From the NCBI GenBank assembly GCA_965203855.1, contig CBDBDN010000005.1, positions 577,804-641,803 on the forward strand: a DNA stretch of 64,000 nt, written 5' to 3'. Made by a program: the position numbers and the translations under genes. Below are positions 8,668 to 57,746 of the stretch, in pieces. The stretch is from Dehalococcoidia bacterium (GTDB taxonomy: Bacteria > Chloroflexota > Dehalococcoidia > Lucifugimonadales > UBA3495). The notes below the pieces were generated by a model. That model saw only the letters and a list, made by a program, of their open reading frames with translations. It did no database searches and was not told the DNA's origin. Each line of letters opens with the position of its first letter. The first letter of the stretch is position 1.

Positions 8668-9354
8668 CTAGCGGCACCACGCCATATGCGCCCAGCGGAT
8701 GTACTGCGCGCCGTAGCTGGAGGGCGCTCTAACCTCCTGGTATCTCCCCCTTGAGAAGTAATGTAATACGCCGGTGGTAGTTATGTCGCCGGCATCAAGT
8801 TCCCCATTGTTGTTGCGGTCAATTACAACCCGGCGCCCGCTATTGGTTACGAATCCGCTGGTGCCATCGGAGGCGGTGATGCGGCTCCCTACCGGAGCGT
8901 TAGGGTCCGCAACGCCTTGGTGGGGTGGGGTAAGATAGTTGTTGCGCGCGTCAGCCAGAGCATTCGCAAGGCTGCCCCAGCCCCCGGTGTCCAAAATGCT
9001 GTTGAAAGTGTATTCGCCCGGTACGAAGGTCGCTCCGCGTACCAGTACAATCAGCCAGCCGCTGTCGCTGTTGCCGCCGTTGTACGCCGCCTGGCCGTCG
9101 CGGACGCCGTAATAACGGGGCTGCTGGCCGTATTCCTGGCAAACCCGCTGGGTGTAAATGTAGCCGCCAAAAGCGCCTTGCGCGGCGGCGTTGGGCGGGT
9201 TGTTGGGAAAGGCCAGCCCGCCGGCAACGGACAGCATCGCCAGGACGCCGATAACGGCAACCTTGCCCAGCCGCCACGCCCGCGCTTGCTTTACATAACT
9301 ACGGGGGGGGGTAGAACGCAACAGATGATTCATAATTCGTCCAACTCTCCGCAA
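8668..9354 (-). CDS. secreted hypothetical protein, paralog A (C-terminal YIRWAHMAWCR)
   Basis: 228 aa. N-terminal signal/anchor (KVAVIGVLAMLSVAGGLA). Shares the YxYTxRVCQEYGQQPRxYxVRDGQxAYNGGNSDSGWLIVL core and the YIRWAHMAWCR tail with the 55526-56087 gene. Contains an in-frame C9 tract (G9 on the plus strand, 9303-9311). Confidence 0.6.
   Translation of the reverse strand: MRRVGRIMNHLLRSTPPRSYVKQARAWRLGKVAVIGVLAMLSVAGGLAFPNNPPNAAAQGAFGGYIYTQRVCQEYGQQPRYYGVRDGQAAYNGGNSDSGWLIVLVRGATFVPGEYTFNSILDTGGWGSLANALADARNNYLTPPHQGVADPNAPVGSRITASDGTSGFVTNSGRRVVIDRNNNGELDAGDITTTGVLHYFSRGRYQEVRAPSSYGAQYIRWAHMAWCR
9303..9311. repeat. homopolymer G9 (C9 on the coding strand) inside codons 8-11 of paralog A
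   Basis: Read directly: acc ccc ccc cgt = TPPR. Confidence 0.9.
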
Positions 9355-27349: not shown

Positions 27350-29062
27350 CTAGATGCGTTCAAGGCCCACCTCCTGCGCCGACGGCTCCGATTCCTCCAT
27401 CATTTCGTTCACCGATTCGCCGGCCGGAATCATCGGGAACACGAACTCATCCTCTTTGACCACAAAGTCCACTACTACCGGGCCGGGCGTTTCCATCGCT
27501 TCCTGTATGGCGCCGGATACTTCCTCTTGCCGCGTTACCCGAATGCCCCGAATGCCGTAAGCCTCGGCCAGTTTGACGAAATCCGGGTTCCCGCTGTAAA
27601 TCGTCGCAAAGAAATCTTTTTCATAGAAAAAGTCCTGCCACTGCCGCACCATTCCCAGCGATCCGTTGTTGAGGATGGCGTACTTGACATCAATGTTGTT
27701 CTCGGCGGCGGTAGCCAGGTCGCAGAGGGTCATCTGAAAGCCGCCGTCGCCGGCAATTGACCACACCGTCTTGTCGGGCCGCCCTACTTTGGCGCCCAAT
27801 GCGGCGGGCACCTCAAAGCCCATTGCGCCGCTGCCCCCGGAGGTAATCAGCGAGTTCGGCTCCTTGTAGCCGTAATGCTGCGCCGCCCACATCTGATGCT
27901 GCCCCACGCCGGTAACGACGATGGAATGCCCGTCGGTAGCGTCCGACAGCTCTTTAAGCACCTGCTGGGGCAGCAGCTGGTCGGATTTACGGATGAACAA
28001 GGACGGATGCTCGGCGCGCAGGCTGTCCGTTTCCCTAATCCAGTCCAGGTGAACCGTAGCATTGACCAGCGGCAGCAGCGCGCGCAGCGTCGCTTTCAGG
28101 TCGCCCAGCACCGGCGCATCGGCGATGACATTCTTGTTGAATTCCGAGGGGTCAACATCGCAGTGGACAATTTTGGCGTGGGGCGCAAAATCGGCGATGC
28201 GTCCGGTAACCCGGTCGTCAAACCGCGCGCCCAGCGCAATCACCAGGTCGGAGCGGTCAATCGCCAGGCTGGCGTAGGCCATCCCGTGCATTCCCGGCAT
28301 CCCCATATTCAGCACATGGTCGGTAGGGAGAGCGCCGATGCCCAGCAGCGTAGTGATGACCGGGATCTGCGCCTTTTCGGCCAGCTCTCGCAGTTCATCC
28401 CAGGCCCGCGCAATCAGCACGCCATGCCCGGCCAGTATCACCGGACGTTCGGCCTCGTTAATCAGGCGGGCCGCGGCTTGCGCCTGCTGCGGATCCGGAT
28501 CTCCGGGCGGATGGTAGCCGGGCAGGTTGATGTCATCCGGCCACTCAAACTCAATCATTTCGCCGGCCAGCACATCTTTGGGAATGTCAATCAGCACCGG
28601 GCCGGGCCGGCCGGTGCGGGCGATGTAAAACGCCTCTTTGATGGCCGGCGCAATGTCGCGGACGTCCATCACCAGGTAATTATGCTTGGTGACCGGCAGC
28701 GTGATGCCGGTAATATCGGTTTCCTGAAAAGCGTCGCGGCCAATGGCGGCGCGCGGCACTTGCCCGGTAATGCACACAATCGGCACCGAATCCATCTGCG
28801 CCGACGCCAGCCCGGTTACCAGGTTAGTGGCACCGGGGCCGGATGTAGCCGAGCAGACGCCCACTTTGCCCGTAGCCCGCGCGTAGCCGTCCGCGGCCAT
28901 AGCGGCGGCCTGTTCGTGGCGTACCAGGATATGCCGCAGCTGGGAATAGCCCGACAGCGCGCCGTAGAAAGGCAGCACCGCCCCGCCGGGCAGCCCGAAT
29001 ATGGTGTCCACATCCTCTTTGAGCAGGCTTTCGCAGACGATTTCCGCGCCGGTCATTTTCAT
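27350..29062 (-). CDS. ilvB: acetolactate synthase large subunit
   Basis: Start at the ATG at 29062 (MKMTGAEIVCESL). ThDP-enzyme motifs (GGSGAMGFEVPAALGA, AGDGGFQM). Confidence 0.95.
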   Translation of the reverse strand: MKMTGAEIVCESLLKEDVDTIFGLPGGAVLPFYGALSGYSQLRHILVRHEQAAAMAADGYARATGKVGVCSATSGPGATNLVTGLASAQMDSVPIVCITGQVPRAAIGRDAFQETDITGITLPVTKHNYLVMDVRDIAPAIKEAFYIARTGRPGPVLIDIPKDVLAGEMIEFEWPDDINLPGYHPPGDPDPQQAQAAARLINEAERPVILAGHGVLIARAWDELRELAEKAQIPVITTLLGIGALPTDHVLNMGMPGMHGMAYASLAIDRSDLVIALGARFDDRVTGRIADFAPHAKIVHCDVDPSEFNKNVIADAPVLGDLKATLRALLPLVNATVHLDWIRETDSLRAEHPSLFIRKSDQLLPQQVLKELSDATDGHSIVVTGVGQHQMWAAQHYGYKEPNSLITSGGSGAMGFEVPAALGAKVGRPDKTVWSIAGDGGFQMTLCDLATAAENNIDVKYAILNNGSLGMVRQWQDFFYEKDFFATIYSGNPDFVKLAEAYGIRGIRVTRQEEVSGAIQEAMETPGPVVVDFVVKEDEFVFPMIPAGESVNEMMEESEPSAQEVGLERI

Positions 29063-29109
29063 AATTCGGTTTCTCCTGCTGATTTGCGGCAGCAATCACT
29101 AGGGGCAAT

Positions 29110-29420
29110 GGGGCAAAAATAAACCCCATCCCTGTGAAGGGACGGGTTGCAGGGCCCGCGGTACCACCCTTCTTTTCCGAATGGCGGGTTGTCCGCCATG
29201 CAGAACGCTTGCTGTACACGGCCTATATCGGGGCTGAACCGCCGACCCTACGCGTCCGCCGGCCGGGATTCTGCGCTTGCGCCGCAACAAACCCGCCGGC
29301 AGCCATTTCAGGCCGGTCGCTCCGGGGCGAGTTCAAGGGCTTGCGACCGCCGGCTTGCACCAACCGCCGGCTCTCTGCTGGCCTGCCGCCCTTTACTACT
29401 CCCCATCACAGCGAACAACG
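29110..29420 (-). promoter_or_regulatory. T-box riboswitch leader, Leu (CUC) specifier, controlling the ilvB operon
   Basis: Minus strand contains, in canonical order: a GA/K-turn-like TGATGGGGAGTA; an AGAGAG box plus a GGTTGGTGCAAG distal loop; a specifier context TTGAA-CTC-G (GAG on plus at 29329-29331); the T-box sequence AGGGTGGTACCGCGGG (plus 29155-29170); and a terminator. Confidence 0.8.
29115..29146 (-). terminator. intrinsic terminator of the T-box leader
   Basis: Minus strand reads CCCGTCCCT-TCAC-AGGGATGGG (9-bp stem with one G-U pair) followed by GTTTATTTTT. Confidence 0.75.
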
Positions 29421-41200: not shown

Positions 41201-41671
41201 AGCGAGGCCGAACTGCGCGCCCGCCAGCCCCTGGCCAACGCCGGCTGGGGCGGCTTGCTGGTGATTATGTTCCTGGCGCTGGTGCTGGCCAGCGCATCCG
41301 GCATCGCCCTGTTCTGCTGGCTGGACACGCGGGAACGCCAGACCGAGTTCGCCCTGCTGCGGACGCTGGGCAGCAGCCGAGGCCAGCTCAACGCCGTCGT
41401 CTGGTTCAACCTGGCCGTAGTGGTAATCGCCGGCGTCGCCGTCGGCACCTGGGCCGGCGCGCAAATCGGAGCCGCGTTGCTGCCGGTGCTGGAAGTATCC
41501 GAGGGCGGCGTCCGGGCCACGCCGCCGCTGACGCTGGAAACCGACTGGCGGATGCTGGCCCTGGCCTACGCCGTGCTGGGCGGCGTCAGCATCGTAACGG
41601 TAATCTGGCTGGCAGTTGTAACCGGCCGGCTGGAAGTGCAGCGGGTGCTGCGCGCCGGCGAAGGCGGCTAG
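38234..41671 (+). CDS. large double-FtsX-domain ABC transporter permease, permease 2
   Basis: 1145 aa with the same architecture as permease 1 (IAMLKSRGATTLQIGILTLVEGLLLAG; C-terminal EFALLRTLGSSRGQLNAVVWFNLAVV). Confidence 0.8.
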   Translation: MTAILQLGYVLARRRLMASFRIELTVLLGVTLAVLLLASAAVFNDLLAETALRRTLSEAAPGDVNAWVRVFNSLDDPRTATANSDRYLTSRRFVRERVLDPLDYAFAETSFQIETSTFYFAGRPNLDLPNDRRPRGRLQYLSGLQASPDGTEGKATLAAGRWPALPENPGYDDASGDTDGIVIEVAVDAAGLEFLGLPLGETFQIFPATGGAGQHSTPVRVVGIVEPVNPDAEYWFRRDKLLTYHDENWTLVPLFTAESALRQQVGRRYPGIYTSSAWFLQTDRLGVRAGRVDDLQDDLRRMRRAVNNDLPNGSASTGLPRILEDYEEQLLLARIPLFLMVFLVAGILAYYLTITAGMVIRARSAEIAMLKSRGATTLQIGILTLVEGLLLAGPALAAGTLLSPLLARALGGLVFDAAWTGAPVSLSWTAVGLGAAGALLAVVVLSLATLAAARKGIVEFRQAGARPARTPFVHRYYLDLLALAVIALLWWQISSRGTALTRSLGSRELEVDFTLLLGPALGLIALGLLVMRLFPLAAGLSSRIVGPVGPGWLVQGLRRIARDPIAPGSLVALLMLATALGVVGSAFSATLTRSQDDRIRYAVGADVRIMHDGARRNRASAGASQQIPQSAEVMRTEGSLLTEAFGSQRISVLAVESDRFASAAWWRPDFSDGSTLPELMTRITPASGAASPGLALPPGTESLALWARTGGFQERLISVAARIRDGSGRHYDVPIGDVSGYGWQQIEESIALRPGRPGRESEAAVRPRLDEPPHTLINLQVIGRTASDRPGVLYLNGLEARTDADANADAVPVAPLESAAGWNAIEDYVRPGLYSLETSSGVARPGGGGSAVFSWSPGGIGAPGLYPGAVAPPLPAIVSPGILEATGASIGDRISLGMSTFALPIEIVGVAAFFPTVDPREQPFVIADLDGFVDYANRHSRRVFGGAGELWVNAGIAPGDRAAAQDAAQRAAAAVSGLGLNISRTIVAESEAELRARQPLANAGWGGLLVIMFLALVLASASGIALFCWLDTRERQTEFALLRTLGSSRGQLNAVVWFNLAVVVIAGVAVGTWAGAQIGAALLPVLEVSEGGVRATPPLTLETDWRMLALAYAVLGGVSIVTVIWLAVVTGRLEVQRVLRAGEGG

Positions 41672-41838
41672 ACGGCGCAAAAACGCAATACTATAATGTC
41701 CGGCGGTGCGGAGTTCCGATTCAGTCCGGTTCAGCTAGACAGAATATTTCCAGAGGGATTATGCAAATGCCCAATGTTATTGCCAGCCGGCGGCCCATCC
41801 GCGGCTGCTTCCGTATCGCTTCCACAGCCCTGAAAGTC

Positions 41839-41874
41839 GGGGGGGGGGGGGGGGGGGGGGGGGGGAGAGAGAGA
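41839..41874. repeat. G27 homopolymer followed by (GA)5
   Basis: Counted directly: 27 G (41839-41865), then GAGAGAGAGA overlapping the last G. It occupies the position of GTGGGGGTGGGGAGATG in the paralogous copy. Confidence 0.95.
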
Positions 41875-41897
41875 AACGCTTCCCCCTGCTGGCGGCG

Positions 41898-43697
41898 TTG
41901 GCAGTATTAGTCTGCGCTTCATCCCTGTTCTCCGCCGGGTCGGGGCCGGCATTAGCGCAAGACCGTTGGCTGGATTTGCCGGCGCCGACCGGCGTGGCGG
42001 CAGTTAACGGCGCAAATCCGGGCGAAGTGATAATTTCCTGGAACCCGGTTGCCGGCGCCGCTTACTACCGCATCGCCTGGATTGCCGCCGCCGATGCGGA
42101 CGCGATAGCCGAAAGCGGCGGCGACTGGCTGGCAGCAATCGCTTATACCAACATATCCGCCGTTACTGATACCGGTACTGATACGGATTCCGATATACGG
42201 CATACCTTGGCCCGCCTCAACCCGGGCGTGCGCTATACTTTTCTGGTGGGCAGCTTGCGCGTCAAATCGGGAACGCCGTCCTGGTCGTCGCCGGCCGAAC
42301 TTAACCTGACTATGGGCGCTCTAATCCCAGACAAGTTTCGCGAAATTACCGTGCCGGTAGGCTTAACGGTCAATGAACCGGGAGCATTTGGCGGCTATAC
42401 TTTGGTCACTGCCCTTTATAAAGGAATCAGTTTTTTGATTGACGCAGGCGGACAGTTGATACGCCGCTGGGATCATACGATTATCCATACGCGGCTGCTT
42501 GAGAATGGCAATCTGCTGGGAACAAGCAGAGAAGGCGTGATTTATGAAATTGACCCGGCAGGCAATCTGCTGTGGGAATACCAGCATCCTAAGAGGCAAC
42601 ATCACGACTTTCTGAAACTGCCTAATGGCAATGTGCTGCTGATAGTGCGGGAGCTCAAAACGCAAGCGGAAGCCGTCGCTGCCGGTGCCAACCCCGCATT
42701 CGCGAGTCCTGACGGGCTGTATAACGAAAGGATTATTGAAATTCGTCCCATCTATCCGGATCACGCCGAAGTCGTCTGGGAATGGTCGCTATGGGACCAT
42801 CTGGTGCAGGATTACGATCCCTCCAAAGTCAACTTCGGGATCGTCGCCGAACATCCGGAACTAGTTGACATCAACTATAACCTGCGTCAAATGGCGCGTA
42901 CGGGACGAACTAGCCCCACCGACTGGACGCACGCCAACGGCCTGGACTACAACCCGGCACTGGACCAGATTCTGTTTTCGCCGCGCAATATGAGCGAAAT
43001 CTGGATTATTGACCACAGTACTACTACCGAGGAAGCCGCCGGACATACCGGGGGCAACGGCGGCAGAGGCGGCGATTTGCTGTATCGCTGGGGCAATCCG
43101 CAAGCGTATCGGGCCGGCGCATTCGCCGACCAGCAGCTGTTCTGGCAGCATAATCCCTACTGGATACCGGAAGGATTGCCTGGCGCCGGCAACATCCTGA
43201 TTTTCAACAACGGCGACGGGTATGAGGGGCGTTATCTGGATCATTCGTCGGTGGTGGAGATAACGCCGCCGGTATCCGGCTACGGCTACGCCAGAAATGA
43301 GGCCGGCGGCATCCGCTACGGCCCGTCCCTGCCGGCGTGGACTTATACGGCGGAACATCCCCCCGACTTTTTATCGCGGCGGTTTTCCAACGCACAGCGG
43401 CTGCCCAACGGCAACACAATGATCGTCAGCGGGCAGGACGGCGTGATTTTTGAGGTAACGCCGGATGGCGCCATGGTGTGGCGGTATGTGAATCCGGTAG
43501 TCGGCTGGGGGGCGATTTATCAAGGCGACCCGATCCGAGTAGCACTAGCCCCGCAAGGGCGCGCTGGCGGCGCGGGCCCGTTCTGGCGGAATTTCATCTA
43601 CCGCGCTTATCGCTACGCGCCGAACTATCCGGGACTGCAACATTATGACTTGACGCCCAAAGGCACCGTGGAACGCTATCGCAATGACGGGCAATAG
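41898..43697 (+). CDS. secreted FN3 + arylsulfotransferase (ASST)-like beta-propeller protein, copy 1 (start codon uncertain or lost)
   Basis: 599-aa ORF from a TTG. The signal-peptide remnant KRFPLLAALAVLVCASS..ALA-QD continues upstream with no ATG. FN3-like N-terminal domain. Propeller motifs ENGNLL, HHDFLKLPNGNVL, WEWSLWDH, THANGLDYNPALDQILFSPRNMSEIWIIDHS, LPNGNTMI. Confidence 0.6.
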   Translation: MAVLVCASSLFSAGSGPALAQDRWLDLPAPTGVAAVNGANPGEVIISWNPVAGAAYYRIAWIAAADADAIAESGGDWLAAIAYTNISAVTDTGTDTDSDIRHTLARLNPGVRYTFLVGSLRVKSGTPSWSSPAELNLTMGALIPDKFREITVPVGLTVNEPGAFGGYTLVTALYKGISFLIDAGGQLIRRWDHTIIHTRLLENGNLLGTSREGVIYEIDPAGNLLWEYQHPKRQHHDFLKLPNGNVLLIVRELKTQAEAVAAGANPAFASPDGLYNERIIEIRPIYPDHAEVVWEWSLWDHLVQDYDPSKVNFGIVAEHPELVDINYNLRQMARTGRTSPTDWTHANGLDYNPALDQILFSPRNMSEIWIIDHSTTTEEAAGHTGGNGGRGGDLLYRWGNPQAYRAGAFADQQLFWQHNPYWIPEGLPGAGNILIFNNGDGYEGRYLDHSSVVEITPPVSGYGYARNEAGGIRYGPSLPAWTYTAEHPPDFLSRRFSNAQRLPNGNTMIVSGQDGVIFEVTPDGAMVWRYVNPVVGWGAIYQGDPIRVALAPQGRAGGAGPFWRNFIYRAYRYAPNYPGLQHYDLTPKGTVERYRNDGQ

Positions 43698-43736: not shown

Positions 43737-43816
43737 GGGCGGATTCCGGCCTGCGCCCAAATGACGGTTAGGGGGCCGGAATAACGGTATTGGTAGGTAG
43801 CCGGAATGATGGCGTT
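43737..43816. repeat. family-A repeats (reverse orientation) inside duplication unit 1
   Basis: GGATTCCGGCCTGCGCCCAAATGACGG, CCGGAATAACGG, CCGGAATGATGG. Confidence 0.7.
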
Positions 43817-44153
43817 GCAAAAAGTATGACGGCGCAGAGCGGCGGAACGATAGCGTGATGCGGTATAATAGCCCCCGCTTTGCGTTGCCCGCGCCCGACT
43901 GCGGCAATCCCCGGCGCAGCGCAAGCCCGTCCGCAATGGCATCAGCAAACTACAACGACGCCAACAACGCCCGTTCCGGCAGCGACGACTACCGTCGGCA
44001 GTTTATGCCCCCGGAACGCCGCAGCCGCGCCGGCCGGCCCGACGCCCCACGACTAGAGATTATGCAAATGCCCGATGTTACCGCTAATCGGCGGCCCGGC
44101 CGCAGCCGTTTCCCGATTAGATCCACTGCCCTGAAAGTCGTGGGGGTGGGGAG

Positions 44154-46094
44154 ATGAAACGCTTCCTCTTGCCGGCGGCATTAGCGGTAGCGGCGTTAGC
44201 GGTATTAGTTTGCGCCCTGCTCCTGCTCGCCGCCGGGCCAAAGCCGGCAGCAGTGCTGGACCGCTGGCTGGATTTGCCGGCGCCGACCGGCATTGCGGTC
44301 GTCAACGGCGAAAATCCGGGCGAAGTGATTATCTCTTGGAACCCGGTTGACGGCGCCGCTTTCTACCGCATCGCCTGGATTGCCGCCGCCGATGCGGATG
44401 CGATAACCGAAAACGGCGGCGACTGGCTGGATGCCATCGCCTATACCAACATATCCGCTGCTGCCGATACGGATACTGCTGCCGATACGGATGCCGATGC
44501 CGATACCGATACGGATGCCGATACCGATACCGATACGAATGCCGATACCGATACGGATGTCTATGCCGATACGGATGCCAATACCGATGACGATACTGGC
44601 ACACAGCATACCTTGACCCGCCTCAACCCGGGCGCCCGCTATACTTTTCTGGTCGGCAGCCTGCGCGTCAAAAACGGAACGCCGTACTGGTCGGCGCCGG
44701 CCGAACTTAACCTGACTACGGGCGTGCTGCCCTATGACCCGTTCCGCCGCAGCACCGTGCCGGTGGGCCTGACTGCCAATGAACCGGGCGCATTTGGCGG
44801 ATATACTCTGTTTGCGGCGCGGAACGAGACACCCTATCTAGTTGACGCGGACGGCCATCTGGTACACCACTGGGATGCTGCGGAGATCATTCATGCTCGT
44901 CTGCTTGAAAACGGCAATCTGTTGGGATCTGATTACGATGGGACGATCTATGAAATTGACCCGGCGGGCAATTTGCTGTGGGAATACCGGTATCCTATCT
45001 GGCAGCATCACGACTTTCTGAAACTGCCTAATGGCAATGTGCTGATGATAGTGCGGGAGCTCAAAACGCAGGCGGAAGCCGTCGCCGCCGGCGCCAACCC
45101 CGCATTCGTGAGTCCTGAGGGGCTGAACAACGAAAGGATTATTGAAGTTCGTCCCATCTACCCGGACCGCGCCGAAGTCGTCTGGGAATGGTCGCTATGG
45201 GACCATCTGGTGCAGGATTACGATCCCTCCAAAGCTAACTACGGAAACGTATCCGAACACCCGGAACTGGTTGACATTAACTATACCCTGCGGCAGCTGT
45301 CTCTGACGCAGCGAGCAACCAAAGATGACCTGCTGCACGCCAACGGATTGGATTACCACCCGGAGCTGGACCAGATTATGTTTTCGGCGCGCAATATGAG
45401 CGAAATCTGGATCATTGACCACAGTACTACTATCGCGGAAGCCGCCGGGCATAGCGGCGGCAACGGCGGCAAGGGCGGCGATTTGCTGTATCGCTGGGGC
45501 AATCCCCAAACTTATCGCGCCGGCTCTTTCGCCGACCAGCAGCTGTTCTGGCAGCATAATCCTTACTGGATACCGGAAGGGTGGCCCGGCGCCGGCAACG
45601 TTCTGATTTTCAACAATGGCGACGAGTACGAAGGGCGTTATCTGGACTACTCGTCGGTGATAGAAATCACACTGCCGGCATCCGGCTACGGCTATGCAAT
45701 GGACGCGGGCGACGGCGTCCGCTACGGCCCAACCCAACCGGTCTGGACTTATACGGCGGAAAATCCCCCCGACTTTTTATCGCGGCGGCTTTCCAGCGCG
45801 CAACGCTTGCCCAACGGCAACACATTGGTCATCGACGGCTTGCAAGGCGTGATTTTTGAGGTTACGCCGGACGGCGCTACGGTGTGGCGGTATGTGAACC
45901 CGGTAGTAGGGAAAGGGCCGATTTACCAGGGCGGTACTATTGCAGTGGCGCAAACCGCGCGGGAGCAGCCGGGGCCGTTCTGGCGCAATGCCCTCTTTCG
46001 CGCCTACCGCTACGCGCCGGACTATCCGGGCCTGCAACACTACGATTTGACGCCCAAAGGCACCGTGGAACTCTATCCCGATGACGGGCAATAG
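44154..46094 (+). CDS. secreted FN3 + ASST-like beta-propeller protein, copy 2
   Basis: ATG with GGGGAG upstream. Signal peptide MKRFLLPAALAVAALAVLVCALLLLAAG. About 85 percent identical by eye to copy 1. Contains a D/T/A acidic repeat insertion. Confidence 0.65.
   Translation: MKRFLLPAALAVAALAVLVCALLLLAAGPKPAAVLDRWLDLPAPTGIAVVNGENPGEVIISWNPVDGAAFYRIAWIAAADADAITENGGDWLDAIAYTNISAAADTDTAADTDADADTDTDADTDTDTNADTDTDVYADTDANTDDDTGTQHTLTRLNPGARYTFLVGSLRVKNGTPYWSAPAELNLTTGVLPYDPFRRSTVPVGLTANEPGAFGGYTLFAARNETPYLVDADGHLVHHWDAAEIIHARLLENGNLLGSDYDGTIYEIDPAGNLLWEYRYPIWQHHDFLKLPNGNVLMIVRELKTQAEAVAAGANPAFVSPEGLNNERIIEVRPIYPDRAEVVWEWSLWDHLVQDYDPSKANYGNVSEHPELVDINYTLRQLSLTQRATKDDLLHANGLDYHPELDQIMFSARNMSEIWIIDHSTTIAEAAGHSGGNGGKGGDLLYRWGNPQTYRAGSFADQQLFWQHNPYWIPEGWPGAGNVLIFNNGDEYEGRYLDYSSVIEITLPASGYGYAMDAGDGVRYGPTQPVWTYTAENPPDFLSRRLSSAQRLPNGNTLVIDGLQGVIFEVTPDGATVWRYVNPVVGKGPIYQGGTIAVAQTAREQPGPFWRNALFRAYRYAPDYPGLQHYDLTPKGTVELYPDDGQ
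44464..44597 (+). repeat. in-frame hexanucleotide-type (GAT ACN / GAT GCC) microsatellite encoding (DT/DA)n
   Basis: Encodes ADTDTAADTDADADTDTDADTDTDTNADTDTDVYADTDANTDDDT, where copy 1 has only a short TDTGTDTDSD. Confidence 0.9.
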
Positions 46095-46137: not shown

Positions 46138-46246
46138 GGGGCGGATTCCGGCTTGCGCCGGAATGACGGTATTGGTGGATAGCCGGAATGACGGTTAGGA
46201 TGCCGGAATGACGGTATTGGTGAATAGCCGAAACGATGGCGTTGCA
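46138..46246. repeat. family-A repeats (reverse orientation; 20-25-bp units) inside duplication unit 2
   Basis: GGATTCCGGCTTGCGCCGGAATGACGG, then three CCGGAATGACGGT-type units. Confidence 0.8.
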
Positions 46247-55098: not shown

Positions 55099-55387
55099 GC
55101 CATTCCGAACCCTTACAACCGCCATTCCGAACCCTTACAACCGTCATTCCGAACCCTTACAACCGTCATTCCGAACCCTTACAACCGTCATTCCGAACTC
55201 TTACAACCGTCATTCCGAACTCTTACAACCGCCATTCCGAACTCTTACAACCGCCATTCTGAACTCTTACAACCGCCATTCCGAACTCTTACAACCGTCA
55301 TTCCGAACTCTTACAACCGCCATTCCGAACCCTTACAACCGCCATTCCGAACCCTTACAACCGTCATTCCGGCGCAAGCCGAAATCC
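55099..55387. repeat. family-A tandem array, 12 units of 22 bp plus a terminal hairpin unit
   Basis: G(C/T)CATTCCGAAC(C/T)CTTACAACC repeated head to tail, ending GTCATTCCGGCGCAAGCCGAAATCC. Confidence 0.95.
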
Positions 55388-55525
55388 TGCCTATCCGTAT
55401 ATCCCCCGAAAGCCCAAAATCCCCGTCCACTCTGCCAGCAACGCCCGGCCAGCCTTATGGTACAATAGGAGCCGTCTAAAACTCGCAAGCGTTAGTACAG
55501 ACACTGCGCCAAAGGAGGCAGCATT

Positions 55526-56087
55526 ATGCTGAAAAAGATTGCCCTGGCAACCGCGGCCGCCAGCGGCCTTTTCGCCGTCATCGCCATCGGAATTCTGCCC
55601 CCCCCCCTCCGCTAAAGCTACCAGCTTGGGCGGTTACACTTATACCCTGCGGGTTTGCCAGGAGTACGGCCAGCAGCCCCGTTGGTACAATGTCCGCGAC
55701 GGCCAGTCCGCCTACAACGGCGGCAACAGCGACAGCGGCTGGCTCATTGTCCTGGAACACGGCAGCCATGTCGCAGCCGTAGCCGGCACGCCGGACCGCT
55801 ATGTAAGAAACGACGCCAGCGGCGATTATGTTTGGAACGGTTTCGGTAGCCGCTACATCCGGTTAACCGGCAATCGCTTCACCAGACACGGACCTGATGA
55901 TTACCGCTTGGATCCCGCCGGTAATCGCGTCAGAACCGCTACTACGCCTTGGAGCCCCGGCGACCCCACTCCTGCCGCGGATTTTTCCGCCTTTCTCTAC
56001 CGCTACGACCGCATCCCGGGCACCCCGGACACCCCCGCAAGAGGCGGCCAATACATCCGCTGGGCCCATATGGCCTGGTGCCGATAA
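55526..56087 (+). pseudogene. secreted hypothetical protein, paralog B, split by a C10 tract (frameshifted or phase-variable)
   Basis: The ATG at 55526 encodes the signal peptide MLKKIALATAAASGLFAVIAIGILPPP, then hits a stop. The mature domain (SAKATSLGGYTYTLRVCQEYGQQPRWY..YIRWAHMAWCR) continues in the next frame. A C9 tract would join the two frames. Confidence 0.6.
55598..55607. repeat. C10 homopolymer at the signal-peptide/mature-domain junction of paralog B
   Basis: Counted directly (ctg + 10 C + tcc). Confidence 0.95.
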
Positions 56088-56126: not shown

Positions 56127-56223
56127 TCGTCATTCCGAACCCTTATAACCGTTCAAGGCGCGTCGTCAAATGCGCCGTCATTCCGAACCTTTATAACCGT
56201 CATTCCGGCTTGCGCCGGAATCC
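56127..56223. repeat. family-A units (two CGTCATTCCGAACC(C/T)TTATAACC half-sites plus a hairpin)
   Basis: Ends GTCATTCCGGCTTGCGCCGGAATCC. Confidence 0.8.
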
Positions 56224-57746
56224 ATTGCCGCATCCTGCCACGCCAAACGGCCATTTACGATGGTCAACGCCGCCCGCGCTGCCGCCAATTCCTCAACCGC
56301 CGGCAGCGCTGCCACCGCCAGATCCGCCGGCTCCCCTACCCTGATGCGCCGCCCCACAGCGTGAAGCCGCAGCGCATCTACTACGGACGGGATGGCAACG
56401 CCGCCCAAAGCGATGCCGTCCGCCGACTGCCGGGTTACTGCGGCGGCAATGCCGGCCCACGGATTCGGCTCAACCACCGGCGCATCGGAACCGAAAGCCA
56501 TCGGAACGCCCATCGCATACAGCGCCCCTACCGGGTACAAATGCGGCAGCAGCTCCGGCGCAACCGTCCGGGCATAGCGTTCCCCATCATAATGTAAAAA
56601 GGCCGGATTGCCGACGACCTGCGCCCCCGACTGCCACACCAGCTTGGCCACATCCGGCGGGCATTCGGCGCAATGCTCAATCCGATGACGACTCCCCGCC
56701 GGCGGGGGTATGCCGGACAGCGACAGGGCGGCGGCCACTACTGCATCCTGCTCAACGGCGTGAATCGCCGCCGGATAGCCGGCATGACGGGCCTGCCGCA
56801 CCATTTCGGTAAGCCGTTCCGGGTCGGGATGCAGCGCGCCGCCGGATGCCGTAAGCATTATCTTGGCGTGTCCCAAAGTCAGCATACCGCCGGCGGTAGT
56901 GTCGCCGTAGGCCAGGCCGGCGGCTTGCAGTTCCGGCAATTTGCCCCATCCGGCCATCATCGTAATCCGCAGCGGCAAGGCCCCGTCGCGCGCGGCGGCG
57001 GCCAGGGCGCGCCATTTGGCGATGCCGTTGCCCGCGCCGGCGTCGGTAACGGCGGTAATCCCGTAGCGCAGCAGACGCCGGCCCCAGTCAAACAGGCCGT
57101 CCGGGTAATCCGGCCCGGCGCCCGCAGCAGCCGGCCGCGCCGGCCAAGCCCACGCCGCCGGTTCCAGCAGCAGCCCGGTTGGATGGCCGGCGGCATCCCG
57201 GACAATAACCCCGCCCGGCGGATCGGCAGAGCCGGCGCCAATGCCCATTGCGTCCAGGCCGGCCGAGTTCACAACGGCGGCGTGGCCGGAACGATGGTCA
57301 ACCCGCACCGGCAGGGTCAGCGACACGGCGTCCAGATCCCGGCGTTCTAGATGCCGGCCCAATCCCGCCGGTGAATCGTCATACCCGTAGCCGCGCACCC
57401 AGCCGGCGCCGGACATCGGCAGAGCAGCGCGCAAAGCGGCAATCACCCCAGCCACATCCGGCGCAATTGAGTGACGGCAATCCACTTGCGTATCACGCGC
57501 CGCCGCTGCGAAAATATGGACATGGTCATCCACCAGCCCCGGAATGACGATGCGCCCGTCGCAGTCAACTACCGCAGTATCCGGGCCAACGCCGCCGGCG
57601 ATTTCCCGATACCGGCCCACCGCCGCAATGCCGCCGGCGCGCACCGCCACCGCATCGGCATCCGGCAGAACTGCCAAACCGCCATCGGCACCAGGCAAGA
57701 TTGGCGAACCGCCGGCGGCGGCAAAGATCCGGGCGTTACGCAGCAT
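56178..57746 (-). CDS. amidohydrolase-family metallohydrolase (YtcJ-like)
   Basis: Start at the ATG at 57746 (MLRNARIF). VIPGLVDDHVHIF metal-binding HxH motif and AIHAVEQDAV. The upstream 136 codons of the 658-aa ORF are antisense to the R-M genes and are rejected. Confidence 0.8.
   Translation of the reverse strand: MLRNARIFAAAGGSPILPGADGGLAVLPDADAVAVRAGGIAAVGRYREIAGGVGPDTAVVDCDGRIVIPGLVDDHVHIFAAAARDTQVDCRHSIAPDVAGVIAALRAALPMSGAGWVRGYGYDDSPAGLGRHLERRDLDAVSLTLPVRVDHRSGHAAVVNSAGLDAMGIGAGSADPPGGVIVRDAAGHPTGLLLEPAAWAWPARPAAAGAGPDYPDGLFDWGRRLLRYGITAVTDAGAGNGIAKWRALAAAARDGALPLRITMMAGWGKLPELQAAGLAYGDTTAGGMLTLGHAKIMLTASGGALHPDPERLTEMVRQARHAGYPAAIHAVEQDAVVAAALSLSGIPPPAGSRHRIEHCAECPPDVAKLVWQSGAQVVGNPAFLHYDGERYARTVAPELLPHLYPVGALYAMGVPMAFGSDAPVVEPNPWAGIAAAVTRQSADGIALGGVAIPSVVDALRLHAVGRRIRVGEPADLAVAALPAVEELAAARAALTIVNGRLAWQDAAMDSGASRNDGYKGSE

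What the first reader, a model, noticed from the sequence alone, without database searches (positions are those of the whole stretch)
41839..41874. G27 + (GA)5 tract sits exactly where the start codon and RBS of propeller copy 1 should be
Seen: copy 2 has GTCGTGGGGGTGGGGAGATGAAACGCTTCC (RBS-like GGGGAG, then ATG). Copy 1 has GTCG, then G27, then AGAGAGAGAAACGCTTCC, with no ATG, although the signal-peptide codons KRFPLLAALAVLVCASS continue in frame. The only start the ORF track finds is a TTG at 41898, inside the signal peptide. An upstream ATG (41761, MQMPNVIASRRP..) is in the +1 frame relative to the gene. A tract of 25 or 28 G would fuse that ORF, through a poly-Gly linker, to the propeller protein, whereas 27 G does not. 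Established knowledge: long homopolymers slip during replication and drive phase variation, and G-runs this long can form G-quadruplexes. Inference: this is a length-dependent on/off switch, a silenced copy, or an assembly problem at a homopolymer.
Basis: partly seen in the sequence, partly recalled or inferred. Interest (0 to 1): 0.7.

Follow-up and report, generated by a model that had tools for sequence, protein, structure and literature searches.

The report
Frame-setting poly-G tract in secreted-protein gene
A run of 27 G's lies inside the start of a secreted-enzyme gene of an uncultured Chloroflexota bacterium, and comparison with relatives shows its length decides whether the gene is in frame, which looks like the slippage-based on/off switches known from pathogens but is so far unproven here because no reads were available.

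Summary
In detail: G27 at 41839-41865 is followed by AGAGAGAG, there is no ATG after the tract, and the upstream ATG 41761 is out of frame.

The tract does not replace the start codon. Most close relatives start at the upstream MQMP...ASTALKV leader and read in frame through a poly-Gly stretch into the signal peptide. ATG 41761 is therefore the likely start, and the G run is coding sequence.

The tract is real. Independent assemblies carry G13, G18, G22, G24 and at least G26 at the same site. Some alleles are in frame (G22+(GA)4, G24+ATG) and some are not (G13, G18, G27). All out-of-frame alleles keep an intact body of about 600 codons (dN/dS about 0.3).

In the window, only G22, G25 or G28 give the full 643-645 aa protein. 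G27 gives a 49 aa peptide.

All three homopolymers of at least 8 nt in the window sit in the first ~30 codons of predicted secreted-protein genes. One more (C10 at 55598) is off by one base.

Best reading: a slippage-prone translational frame switch like Neisseria pilC or opa, here in a Chloroflexota, probably a sponge symbiont. Not shown: length variation within a population. A one-base homopolymer miscall cannot be excluded.

The parts
41669..41697 (+). Promoter-like site TAGACG-17-TATAAT upstream of copy 1
   Evidence: Consensus scan, 10 of 12 matches. The TATAAT box is also present in the syntenic ortholog L007. It is a consensus match only.
41752..41758 (+). Shine-Dalgarno-like AGAGGGA ahead of ATG 41761 and ATG 41767
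   Evidence: Read directly from the sequence. Purine-rich GGAGAGA, AGAGAGA or TAGAGA occupies the same place in L005, L007, L008 and L006.
41761..41838 (+). Leader / N-terminal extension: 26 codons, MQMPNVIASRRPIRGCFRIASTALKV; the likely true start of copy 1
   Evidence: Homologs P0001, P0002, P0004, P0121, P0009, P0012, P0014, P0017 and others begin here and read in frame into the body. The last 18 nt are almost invariant. Variable columns are spread 8/10/9 over the three codon positions.
41839..41865 (+). G27 homopolymer; codes for poly-Gly and sets the reading frame
   Evidence: The homologous site carries G22 (L005), G24 (L008), at least G26 (L006 contig end), G18 (L013) and G13 (L012).
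41866..41873 (+). AGAGAGAG, which with the last G and next A makes (GA)5; codes E-R-E in the ON frame and replaces the ATG found after the tract in copy 2
   Evidence: The identical AGAGAGAG follows the G run in L005 and L013.
41874..41957 (+). Signal-peptide-like segment KRFPLLAALAVLVCASSLFSAGSGPALA, in the -1 frame relative to ATG 41761
   Evidence: Maximum Kyte-Doolittle window is LLAALAVLVCA at 3.03. An ALA|QDRW junction is conserved across the family. No dedicated signal-peptide predictor was available.
41958..43697 (+). Mature body of copy 1: Fn3-like N-domain plus ASST-type beta-propeller, with stop at 43695-43697
   Evidence: Pfam PF05935, E 7.5e-22. PDB sequence hits are to designed propellers. 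The ORF is intact, with dN/dS 0.26-0.30 against relatives.
41908..41910 (+). TAG that ends the 49-aa product of the leader frame in the G27 state
   Evidence: Translation from ATG 41761.
44062..44157 (+). Copy 2 leader ORF (31 codons); its TGA overlaps the main ATG as ATGA
   Evidence: The identical arrangement is found in an independent assembly, L007 8230 onward.
44154..46094 (+). Copy 2 ASST-like propeller gene, with its own ATG after a short interrupted G-rich stretch (GTGGGGGTGGGGAG)
55526..56087 (+). Second tract-bearing gene. The signal-peptide-like MLKKIALATAAASGLFAVIAIGILPPP is followed by C10 (55598-55607). C10 stops the ORF after 29 aa; C9 or C12 gives 186-187 aa
   Evidence: Homologs show PPP, PPPP and PPPPPP, plus one call in the shifted frame (P0270).
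8668..9333 (-). Paralog of the previous gene, with C9 on its coding strand (9303-9311) at codons 8-10 before the hydrophobic segment; in frame
   Evidence: 39% identity, E 3e-33. Homologs vary in poly-Pro length.

Best explanation
**What it is.** The G27 run is a real, slippage-prone homopolymer. It lies inside the 5' coding region of a secreted Fn3 + ASST-like beta-propeller gene, not in place of its start codon.

**How it would work.**
- Translation starts at ATG 41761 (or 41767), behind an AGAGGGA Shine-Dalgarno-like site.
- It then reads a 26-codon leader, the G run as poly-Gly, GAG-AGA-GAG as E-R-E, and then the signal-peptide core KRFPLLAALAVLVCASS.
- This copy has no ATG after the tract, so the whole protein depends on the tract length. 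Lengths of 3n+1 (22, 25, 28) give the 643-645 aa pre-protein. G27, as assembled, ends in a 49-aa peptide.
- Replication slippage should change the length often, so the gene would behave as a translational on/off (contingency) locus.

**Shown:**
- the tract and its frame arithmetic;
- the family-wide upstream start;
- length polymorphism at the homologous site;
- in-frame and out-of-frame alleles, all with intact bodies.

**Inferred:**
- that length changes occur at high frequency within a population;
- that the protein is secreted;
- that the count of 27 is exact.
For: 1. **Upstream start.** Relatives start at the upstream leader and read in frame through Gly3-Gly8 into the signal region: P0001, P0002, P0004, P0121, P0009, P0012, P0014, P0017, P0020.
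2. **Same tract, different lengths (DNA).**
   - L005: G22+AGAGAGAG, in frame.
   - L008: G24+ATG, in frame.
   - L006: the contig begins inside a run of at least 26 G at the syntenic copy-1 position.
   - L013: G18+AGAGAGAG, out of frame.
   - L012: G13, out of frame.
   - Full table.
3. **Frame arithmetic.** Only G22, G25 or G28 open the ORF.
4. **Intact bodies.** Every out-of-frame allele keeps a 592-607 codon body without stops. dN/dS is 0.26-0.30.
5. **Leader-only products.** Two leader-only ORF calls (P0245, P0246) in other assemblies look like OFF products.
6. **Pattern across the window.** All three homopolymers of at least 8 nt lie in the first ~30 codons of predicted secreted-protein genes, and C10 at 55598 is also off by one base. 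Homologs of that second family vary in poly-Pro length.
7. **Mosaic gene family.** The sequence upstream of the tract matches the syntenic ortholog L007 (94.7%). The sequence downstream matches a paralog, L005 (97.3% against 85.1% for L007).
8. **Known precedent.** pilC has a homo-G tract in its signal-peptide region and opa has CTCTT repeats in its leader peptide (PMC5354566). PhasomeIt treats poly-G of 9 or more as phase-variable (PMC5953494).
Against: - No reads were available, so no length variation within a sample has been seen.
- The differences observed are between paralogs or between different organisms. They show evolutionary instability, not reversible switching.
- The count of 27 could be off by one, as in any technology at such a run, in which case the gene is simply ON.
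- Secretion is inferred from hydropathy and an AxA motif only.
- Some family members keep an ATG after the tract (copy 2, L008, L007 copy 1). In those, expression may not depend on the tract frame.
- G9 and C10 runs are not rarer than dinucleotide shuffles predict. Only their positions are telling.
Confidence: 0.6

Rival explanations
1. The homopolymer length is miscalled. The true tract is in frame (for example G28 or G25), the gene is constitutively ON, and the run only encodes a Gly8-9 linker.
For: - In-frame long tracts exist in relatives: G22 and G24.
- Assemblers clearly struggle at this site. The L006 contig breaks inside the run, and L011 has an odd C22-AAACC-G25 junction.
- The body is under purifying selection.
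Against: - Out-of-frame tracts also occur at much shorter, easier lengths in other assemblies: G13 in L012 and G18 in L013.
- Copy 2's out-of-frame leader is reproduced exactly in a second assembly.
- The C10 gene in the same window is also off by one base.
- Even if this rival is true, a 25-28 nt G run would still be hypermutable.
Confidence: 0.2
2. The gene is expressed whatever the DNA length. RNA polymerase slippage or ribosomal -1 frameshifting on the long G/GGG run restores the frame in a fraction of products, so the tract acts as an attenuator rather than a switch.
For: - All out-of-frame arrangements examined place the body in the same (-1) phase relative to the leader. These are window copy 1, L012, L013 and the copy 2 type (mod 3 = 2). 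P0245 also reads in that phase.
- Every GGG codon allows perfect re-pairing after a slip.
- Folding with G-quadruplexes allowed predicts a very stable six-layer quadruplex, taking the MFE from -93.6 to -150.6 kcal/mol.
- Slippage rescue of frameshifted genes at homopolymers is documented (PMC5009743, PMC4256274).
Against: - In-frame alleles exist, so the shifted arrangement is not conserved as programmed recoding sites usually are.
- The same-phase coincidence rests on 4-5 cases (about p = 0.06) and is not significant.
- Documented bacterial transcriptional slippage mostly involves A/T runs.
- Nothing was measured here.
Confidence: 0.12
3. Copy 1 is a recently silenced paralog, a plain pseudogene in the making. 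The tract expansion and ATG loss are decay, not regulation.
For: - The gene is out of frame as assembled and has no ATG after the tract.
- A second, apparently functional copy lies next door.
- The public annotation calls only a truncated 567 aa product from GTG 41994 (P0005).
Against: - The body of 607 codons has no stop, and dN/dS is about 0.3 against every relative.
- The same ATG-less G-run+(GA)4 design is in frame in L005 and recurs in the distant L013. It is therefore a maintained architecture, not a one-off lesion.
Confidence: 0.06
4. The run is a sequencing or assembly artefact with no biological tract behind it, such as two-colour-chemistry poly-G read tails or a chimeric join.
For: Poly-G runs are a known artefact class (my own knowledge). 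L011 shows a suspicious polyC-polyG junction.
Against: - Both flanks are colinear with copy 2 and with the orthologs.
- Long G runs occur at exactly this site in at least five other assemblies from different samples.
- In L006 the orientation is 5'-polyG-gene, the opposite of a read-tail artefact.
- Proteins with 5-8 Gly at this position are common in the family.
Confidence: 0.02

Closest known systems
Neisseria gonorrhoeae/meningitidis pilC: homo-G tract in the signal-peptide coding region
   Same: A poly-G run lies just after the start codon, in the signal-peptide region of an exported protein. Frameshifts in the run switch the gene on or off (PMC5354566). The gene is duplicated (pilC1/pilC2), as with copy 1 and copy 2 here.
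   Different: - Neisseria tracts are typically 9-15 nt, and G14 is the longest assayed in N. meningitidis (PMC5953494). Here the tracts are 13-27 nt.
- The tract here lies in an N-terminal extension ahead of the hydrophobic core.
- The organism is an uncultured Chloroflexota, not a proteobacterial pathogen.
- Switching has not been demonstrated here.
Neisseria opa genes: CTCTT repeats in the leader-peptide coding region of a multi-copy, recombining family
   Same: A repeat in the leader-peptide region sets the frame. The family has several paralogs with mosaic, hypervariable segments (PMC5354566). This compares with the mosaicism seen.
   Different: The opa repeat is a pentamer and this one is a homopolymer. 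Opa proteins are outer-membrane adhesins, whereas these are ASST-like propeller enzymes of unknown substrate.
Frameshifts at homopolymers rescued by transcriptional slippage (endosymbiont poly-A tracts; Citrobacter tssM)
   Same: A long homopolymer inside an ORF, with an out-of-frame genomic state and an intact downstream body (PMC5009743, PMC4256274, PMC3017870).
   Different: Those cases involve A/T runs of about 9-11 nt and a conserved shifted state. Here the run is G, much longer, and both in-frame and out-of-frame alleles occur.
Arylsulfate sulfotransferase (ASST, Pfam PF05935) beta-propeller family
   Same: The body of both copies matches PF05935 above its gathering score.
   Different: These proteins have an extra Fn3-like N-domain with a variable Asp/Thr/Ala repeat, and the leader/poly-Gly extension. 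Enzyme activity and catalytic residues were not examined.

Membership tests
Simple-sequence-repeat contingency locus (translational phase variation) | Uninterrupted repeat above the mutability threshold (PhasomeIt: poly-G/C of at least 9) | tested here: met
   A pure G27. Threshold taken from PMC5953494.
Simple-sequence-repeat contingency locus (translational phase variation) | The repeat lies between the start codon and the body, so a length change shifts the frame | tested here: met
   The upstream start is shared by the family. In simulation, G22, G25 and G28 give 643-645 aa and all other lengths give 47-82 aa.
Simple-sequence-repeat contingency locus (translational phase variation) | Tract length differs at the homologous site among related genomes, with both ON and OFF alleles | tested here: met
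   G13, G18, G22, G24, at least G26, and G27. Two of the long tracts are in frame and three are out of frame, and all bodies are intact.
Simple-sequence-repeat contingency locus (translational phase variation) | High-frequency, reversible length change within one clonal population | not testable with these tools
   There is no read-level data and no culture.
Simple-sequence-repeat contingency locus (translational phase variation) | The product is surface-exposed or secreted | tested here: inconclusive
   A hydrophobic core with Kyte-Doolittle score 3.03 and an ALA|QD junction. No signal-peptide predictor was available and there is no experimental evidence.
Arylsulfotransferase (ASST) PF05935 | Profile match above Pfam's gathering score | tested here: met
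   78.3 and 80.0 bits against a cut-off of 24.2.
Arylsulfotransferase (ASST) PF05935 | Catalytic residues and sulfotransfer activity | not tested
   No active-site comparison or structure prediction was done.
Programmed recoding site (transcriptional slippage / -1 ribosomal frameshift) | The shifted arrangement is conserved across orthologs | tested here: not met
   In-frame alleles (L005, L008, L007 copy 1, L006 copy 2) coexist with shifted ones. However, all shifted ones share the same phase.
Two-colour-chemistry poly-G or chimeric assembly artefact | Poly-G at a read or contig 3' end, non-colinear flanks, and absence from independent assemblies | tested here: not met
   The flanks are colinear, the tract recurs in at least five assemblies, and the orientation in L006 is the opposite of a tail artefact.

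The most novel reading that the evidence does not exclude
This Chloroflexota lineage, probably a sponge symbiont, may run a multi-locus 'phasome'. G/C homopolymers of 9-27 nt would sit in the signal-peptide regions of several secreted-protein families, combined with cassette-like gene conversion among ASST-like paralogs whose breakpoint lies at the tract. That would be a phase- and antigenic-variation system, of the kind known from mucosal pathogens, operating in an uncultivated mutualist of an early-branching animal. Its tracts would be far longer than the poly-G tracts described for Neisseria in the one phasome survey read here.
Probability: 0.4. Interest if true: 0.75.

Novelty: new member of a known kind. 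Interest (0 to 1): 0.55.

Why it matters
Slippage-based contingency loci are textbook for host-adapted pathogens such as Neisseria, Haemophilus, Campylobacter and Helicobacter. My literature searches found no report of them in Chloroflexota or in sponge symbionts.

If the tracts switch, three things would follow:
- These uncultured bacteria vary their secreted or surface proteins stochastically. That bears on how symbionts persist in a host that feeds by phagocytosis, and on phage pressure.
- G22-G27 tracts would extend the known length range of functional coding homopolymers.
- Several public gene calls in this family appear truncated (P0005, P0029, P0031, and probably P0011, P0030, P0033). 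The three examined at the DNA level are truncated because the caller could not read through an out-of-frame tract.

The question can be tested directly with existing public reads.

Tried and rejected
- **Exact-protein look-ups.** Copy 1, copy 2, P0005, P0122 and P0011 were not on record, so the source contig and some truncated relatives could not be inspected.
- **GTDB species genomes.** Only relatives of at most 41% identity from other phyla were found, without the leader.
- **JGI metagenomes.** The gapped pattern GCCCTGAAAGTCG-N(4-34)-AAACGYTTCC gave only two unrelated chance hits.
- **Rfam.** At gathering thresholds the only hit in the window is a T-box at 29135-29418. No known RNA family covers the conserved leader.
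- **Leader on other protein families.** The profile search returned only two leader-only ORFs. It did not even list the full-length proteins used to build the profile, so I do not treat this as evidence of absence.
- **Leader as a conserved peptide.** Variable columns are spread evenly over the codon positions (8/10/9). Only the frame and the last ~6 codons are conserved.
- **Lipoprotein signal.** The Cys in LVCA is not preceded by a lipobox and is replaced by Gly in some relatives.
- **Tat signal.** The RR in the leader lies about 25 residues before the hydrophobic core and is not conserved.
- **L011 (P0025).** The C22-AAACC-G25 junction has an upstream flank that is not homologous to the leader. 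I treat it as a likely misjoin and did not use it as evidence.

Full report
**1.

G27 occupies 41839-41865 and is followed by AGAGAGAG, then AAA CGC TTC (KRF...) at 41874. Copy 2 has GTCGTGGGGGTGGGGAG-ATG-AAACGC at the aligned position. The two copies differ there by a net 18 nt.

In the body frame of copy 1, no start codon precedes TTG 41898. ATG 41761 is 113 nt upstream of the AAA codon (mod 3 = 2). Replacing the run in silico by 20-30 G shows that only 22, 25 and 28 give a long ORF (643-645 aa). G27 gives MQMP...ALKVGGGGGGGGGRERNASPCWRRWQY*, which is 49 aa with its stop at 41908-10.

A run of this length is far beyond chance. Dinucleotide shuffles give about 2.5 G9/C9 9-mer matches per window, against 22 observed, 20 of them inside this one tract.

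**2. What the genes are**

Both copies match Pfam PF05935 (ASST beta-propeller), and copy 1 gives PDB sequence hits to designed propellers. They sit downstream of two large FtsX-type permease genes and upstream of ABC ATPase genes.

The window is ordinary chromosome: glmS, leuA, ilvB behind a T-box, and methylmalonyl-CoA mutase. GlmS is closest to proteins labelled Chloroflexi (72%) and SAR202/Dehalococcoidia (61-62%).

The close relatives all come from ENA assemblies labelled PANK22-1. I take this label to mean the sponge metagenomes of Pankey et al. 2022. The paper exists, but the link between the label and the paper is my inference.

**3. The key result: where the gene starts**

Homologs at 60-91% identity mostly begin at the upstream leader and read straight through poly-Gly into the signal region. 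Examples:

| Protein | N-terminus |
|---|---|
| P0002 | MQMPDVTASRRPIRGCFHIASTALKV-GGGG-MKRF |
| P0001 | ...ALKV-GGGG-KWF (no Met after the tract) |
| P0004 | ...ALKV-GGGGGGG-ERE-KRFPLLAALAVLVCASS |
| P0121 | ...ALKV-GGGGGGGG-MKRF |

P0009, P0012, P0014, P0017 and P0020 are similar. Most have no Met after the Gly run, so the upstream ATG is the family's start and the G run is coding. A purine-rich Shine-Dalgarno-like site precedes that ATG in every locus.

The leader's amino-acid sequence is weakly constrained, with variable columns spread 8/10/9 across the codon positions. Its frame and its last ~18 nt are conserved.

**4. The same tract in other assemblies**

| Locus | Tract and following bases | Frame |
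|---|---|---|
| L005 (different genomic context) | G22+AGAGAGAG | in frame |
| L008 | G24+ATG | in frame |
| L007 (syntenic ortholog of copy 1) | GGGGGCGGGGGG+ATG | in frame |
| L006, copy-2 ortholog | GGGGGAGGGGGT, no ATG | in frame |
| L006, syntenic copy-1 position | contig starts inside a run of at least 26 G | unknown |
| L012 (syntenic, more distant) | G13+TAGG | out of frame |
| L013 | G18+AGAGAGAG | out of frame |

- Copy 2's out-of-frame leader, whose TGA overlaps the main ATG (ATGA), is reproduced exactly in L007.
- No other homopolymer of at least 10 nt occurs in L005, L007 or L008, and none in L006 apart from the run at its contig start.
- Truncated public gene calls (P0005 for this window, P0029, P0031) are explained by out-of-frame tracts. 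Two leader-only ORFs (P0245, P0246) look like OFF products elsewhere.

The tract is therefore real, specific to this site, variable in length, and found in both frames. The poly-G artefact reading fails for three reasons. The flanks are colinear. The tract recurs across samples. In L006 the orientation is the reverse of a read-tail artefact.

**5. The OFF alleles are not decayed**

The bodies of window copy 1, L012 and L013 have no stops. dN/dS of copy 1 against six relatives is 0.26-0.30.

**6. A mosaic family**

Sliding identity of copy 1 to its paralogs swings between about 63% and 100%. Upstream sequence and leader match the syntenic ortholog L007 (94.7% and 93.6%). From the tract onward, copy 1 matches the paralog L005 at 97.3%, against 85.1% for L007. 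This points to an exchange of 5' cassettes with a breakpoint at or near the tract.

A second variable element lies inside the Fn3-like domain. It is a repeat of period 12/18/42 nt at 44458-44596 encoding Asp/Thr/Ala, and it is much longer in copy 2 than in copy 1.

**7. A pattern across the window**

The three homopolymers of at least 8 nt in 64 kb all lie in the first ~30 codons of predicted secreted-protein genes:
- G27 in copy 1.
- C10 at 55598-55607. It comes right after MLKKIALATAAASGLFAVIAIGIL and stops the ORF after 29 aa. C9 or C12 would give 186-187 aa.
- C9 on the minus strand at 9303-9311, at codons 8-10 of a paralog (39% identity, E 3e-33). This one is in frame.

Homologs of that small family show PP, PPP, PPPP and PPPPPP at these positions, and one call (P0270) is in the shifted frame. 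G9 and C10 runs are not in themselves beyond chance. Their placement is what stands out.

**8. Mechanism**

The best-supported reading is a translational frame switch by slipped-strand mispairing. This is the mechanism of pilC (homo-G tract in the signal-peptide region) and opa (CTCTT repeats in the leader peptide) (PMC5354566). In the Neisseria survey I read, poly-G of 9 or more is taken as phase-variable, tracts are mostly 9-15 nt, and G14 is the longest assayed in N. meningitidis (PMC5953494). G22-G27 would be expected to be extremely unstable.

Two architectures coexist in the family:
- **ATG kept after the tract** (copy 2, L008, L007 copy 1). The G-rich stretch can serve as a Shine-Dalgarno site, and the frame of the leader may not matter.
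- **No ATG after the tract**, with G run+(GA)4 (window copy 1, L005, L013). Expression must depend on the tract frame.

Two further points remain open:
- All shifted alleles put the body in the -1 phase.
- Folding with quadruplexes allowed predicts a very stable G4 in the mRNA, taking the MFE from -93.6 to -150.6 kcal/mol.

Transcriptional slippage or ribosomal frameshifting could therefore make OFF leaky (PMC5009743).

**9. What is not shown**

- Length heterogeneity within a population has not been observed.
- The exact count of 27 is not verified. A one-base miscall would make this allele ON.
- Secretion is inferred, not demonstrated.
- The habitat of the window's own organism is not established.

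**10. Verdict**

This is a real feature, a new member of a known kind in an unexpected lineage, and it is testable with public reads. The idea that the tract replaced the start codon and RBS is not.

Noticed in passing
window 55526-56087 (+), C10 at 55598-55607: A second candidate frame-switch gene. A signal-peptide-like N-terminus is followed by C10, which stops the ORF after 29 aa. C9 or C12 would give a 186-187 aa protein of unknown family (motifs GGYTYT.RVCQEYGQQPR ... QYIRWAHMAWCR).
   Followed up: partly
window 8668-9333 (-), G9 on the + strand at 9303-9311: A paralog of the C10 gene (39% identity), carrying C9 on its coding strand at codons 8-10, in frame. About 50 cluster representatives exist. 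Their N-termini vary in poly-Pro length, and many calls start inside the hydrophobic segment.
   Followed up: partly
window 41761-43697 compared with L005, L007, L008: Strong mosaicism among the ASST-like paralogs, with identity from 63% to 100% along the gene. An apparent recombination breakpoint lies at the G tract: upstream sequence matches the syntenic ortholog and downstream sequence matches a paralog.
   Followed up: yes
window 44458-44596 (copy 2) and 42160-42184 (copy 1): An in-frame tandem repeat of period 12/18/42 nt encodes Asp/Thr/Ala runs inside the Fn3-like domain. It has about 11 units in copy 2 and about 2 in copy 1, and its length also differs among homologs.
   Followed up: partly
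window 44062-44157: Copy 2's 31-codon leader ORF ends in a TGA that overlaps the main ATG (ATGA), the classic arrangement for translational coupling. It is reproduced exactly in an independent assembly (L007).
   Followed up: partly
window about 55100-55400; also 43740-43810, 46157-46230, 56150-56250: A dispersed intergenic repeat family built on CGGAATGACGGT(TGTAAGGGTT). It includes an array of about 14 tandem 22-nt units at 55100-55400 and shorter arrays flanking both propeller genes.
   Followed up: no
L011 3030-3085: C22-AAACC-G25 lies directly before the signal peptide of homolog P0025. The upstream flank is unrelated to the family leader. It is either a misjoin through the poly-G/poly-C k-mer or a real perfect hairpin.
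   Followed up: no
L006 1-40: A short-read contig ends inside the G tract of the copy-1 ortholog (G26 A GGGGGG T ATG). These tracts break assemblies, and gene callers produce truncated products there (P0005, P0029, P0031).
   Followed up: yes
window 29135-29418 (-): A T-box leader (99.8 bits) lies upstream of an acetolactate-synthase-like TPP enzyme gene (27350-29095, minus strand).
   Followed up: no
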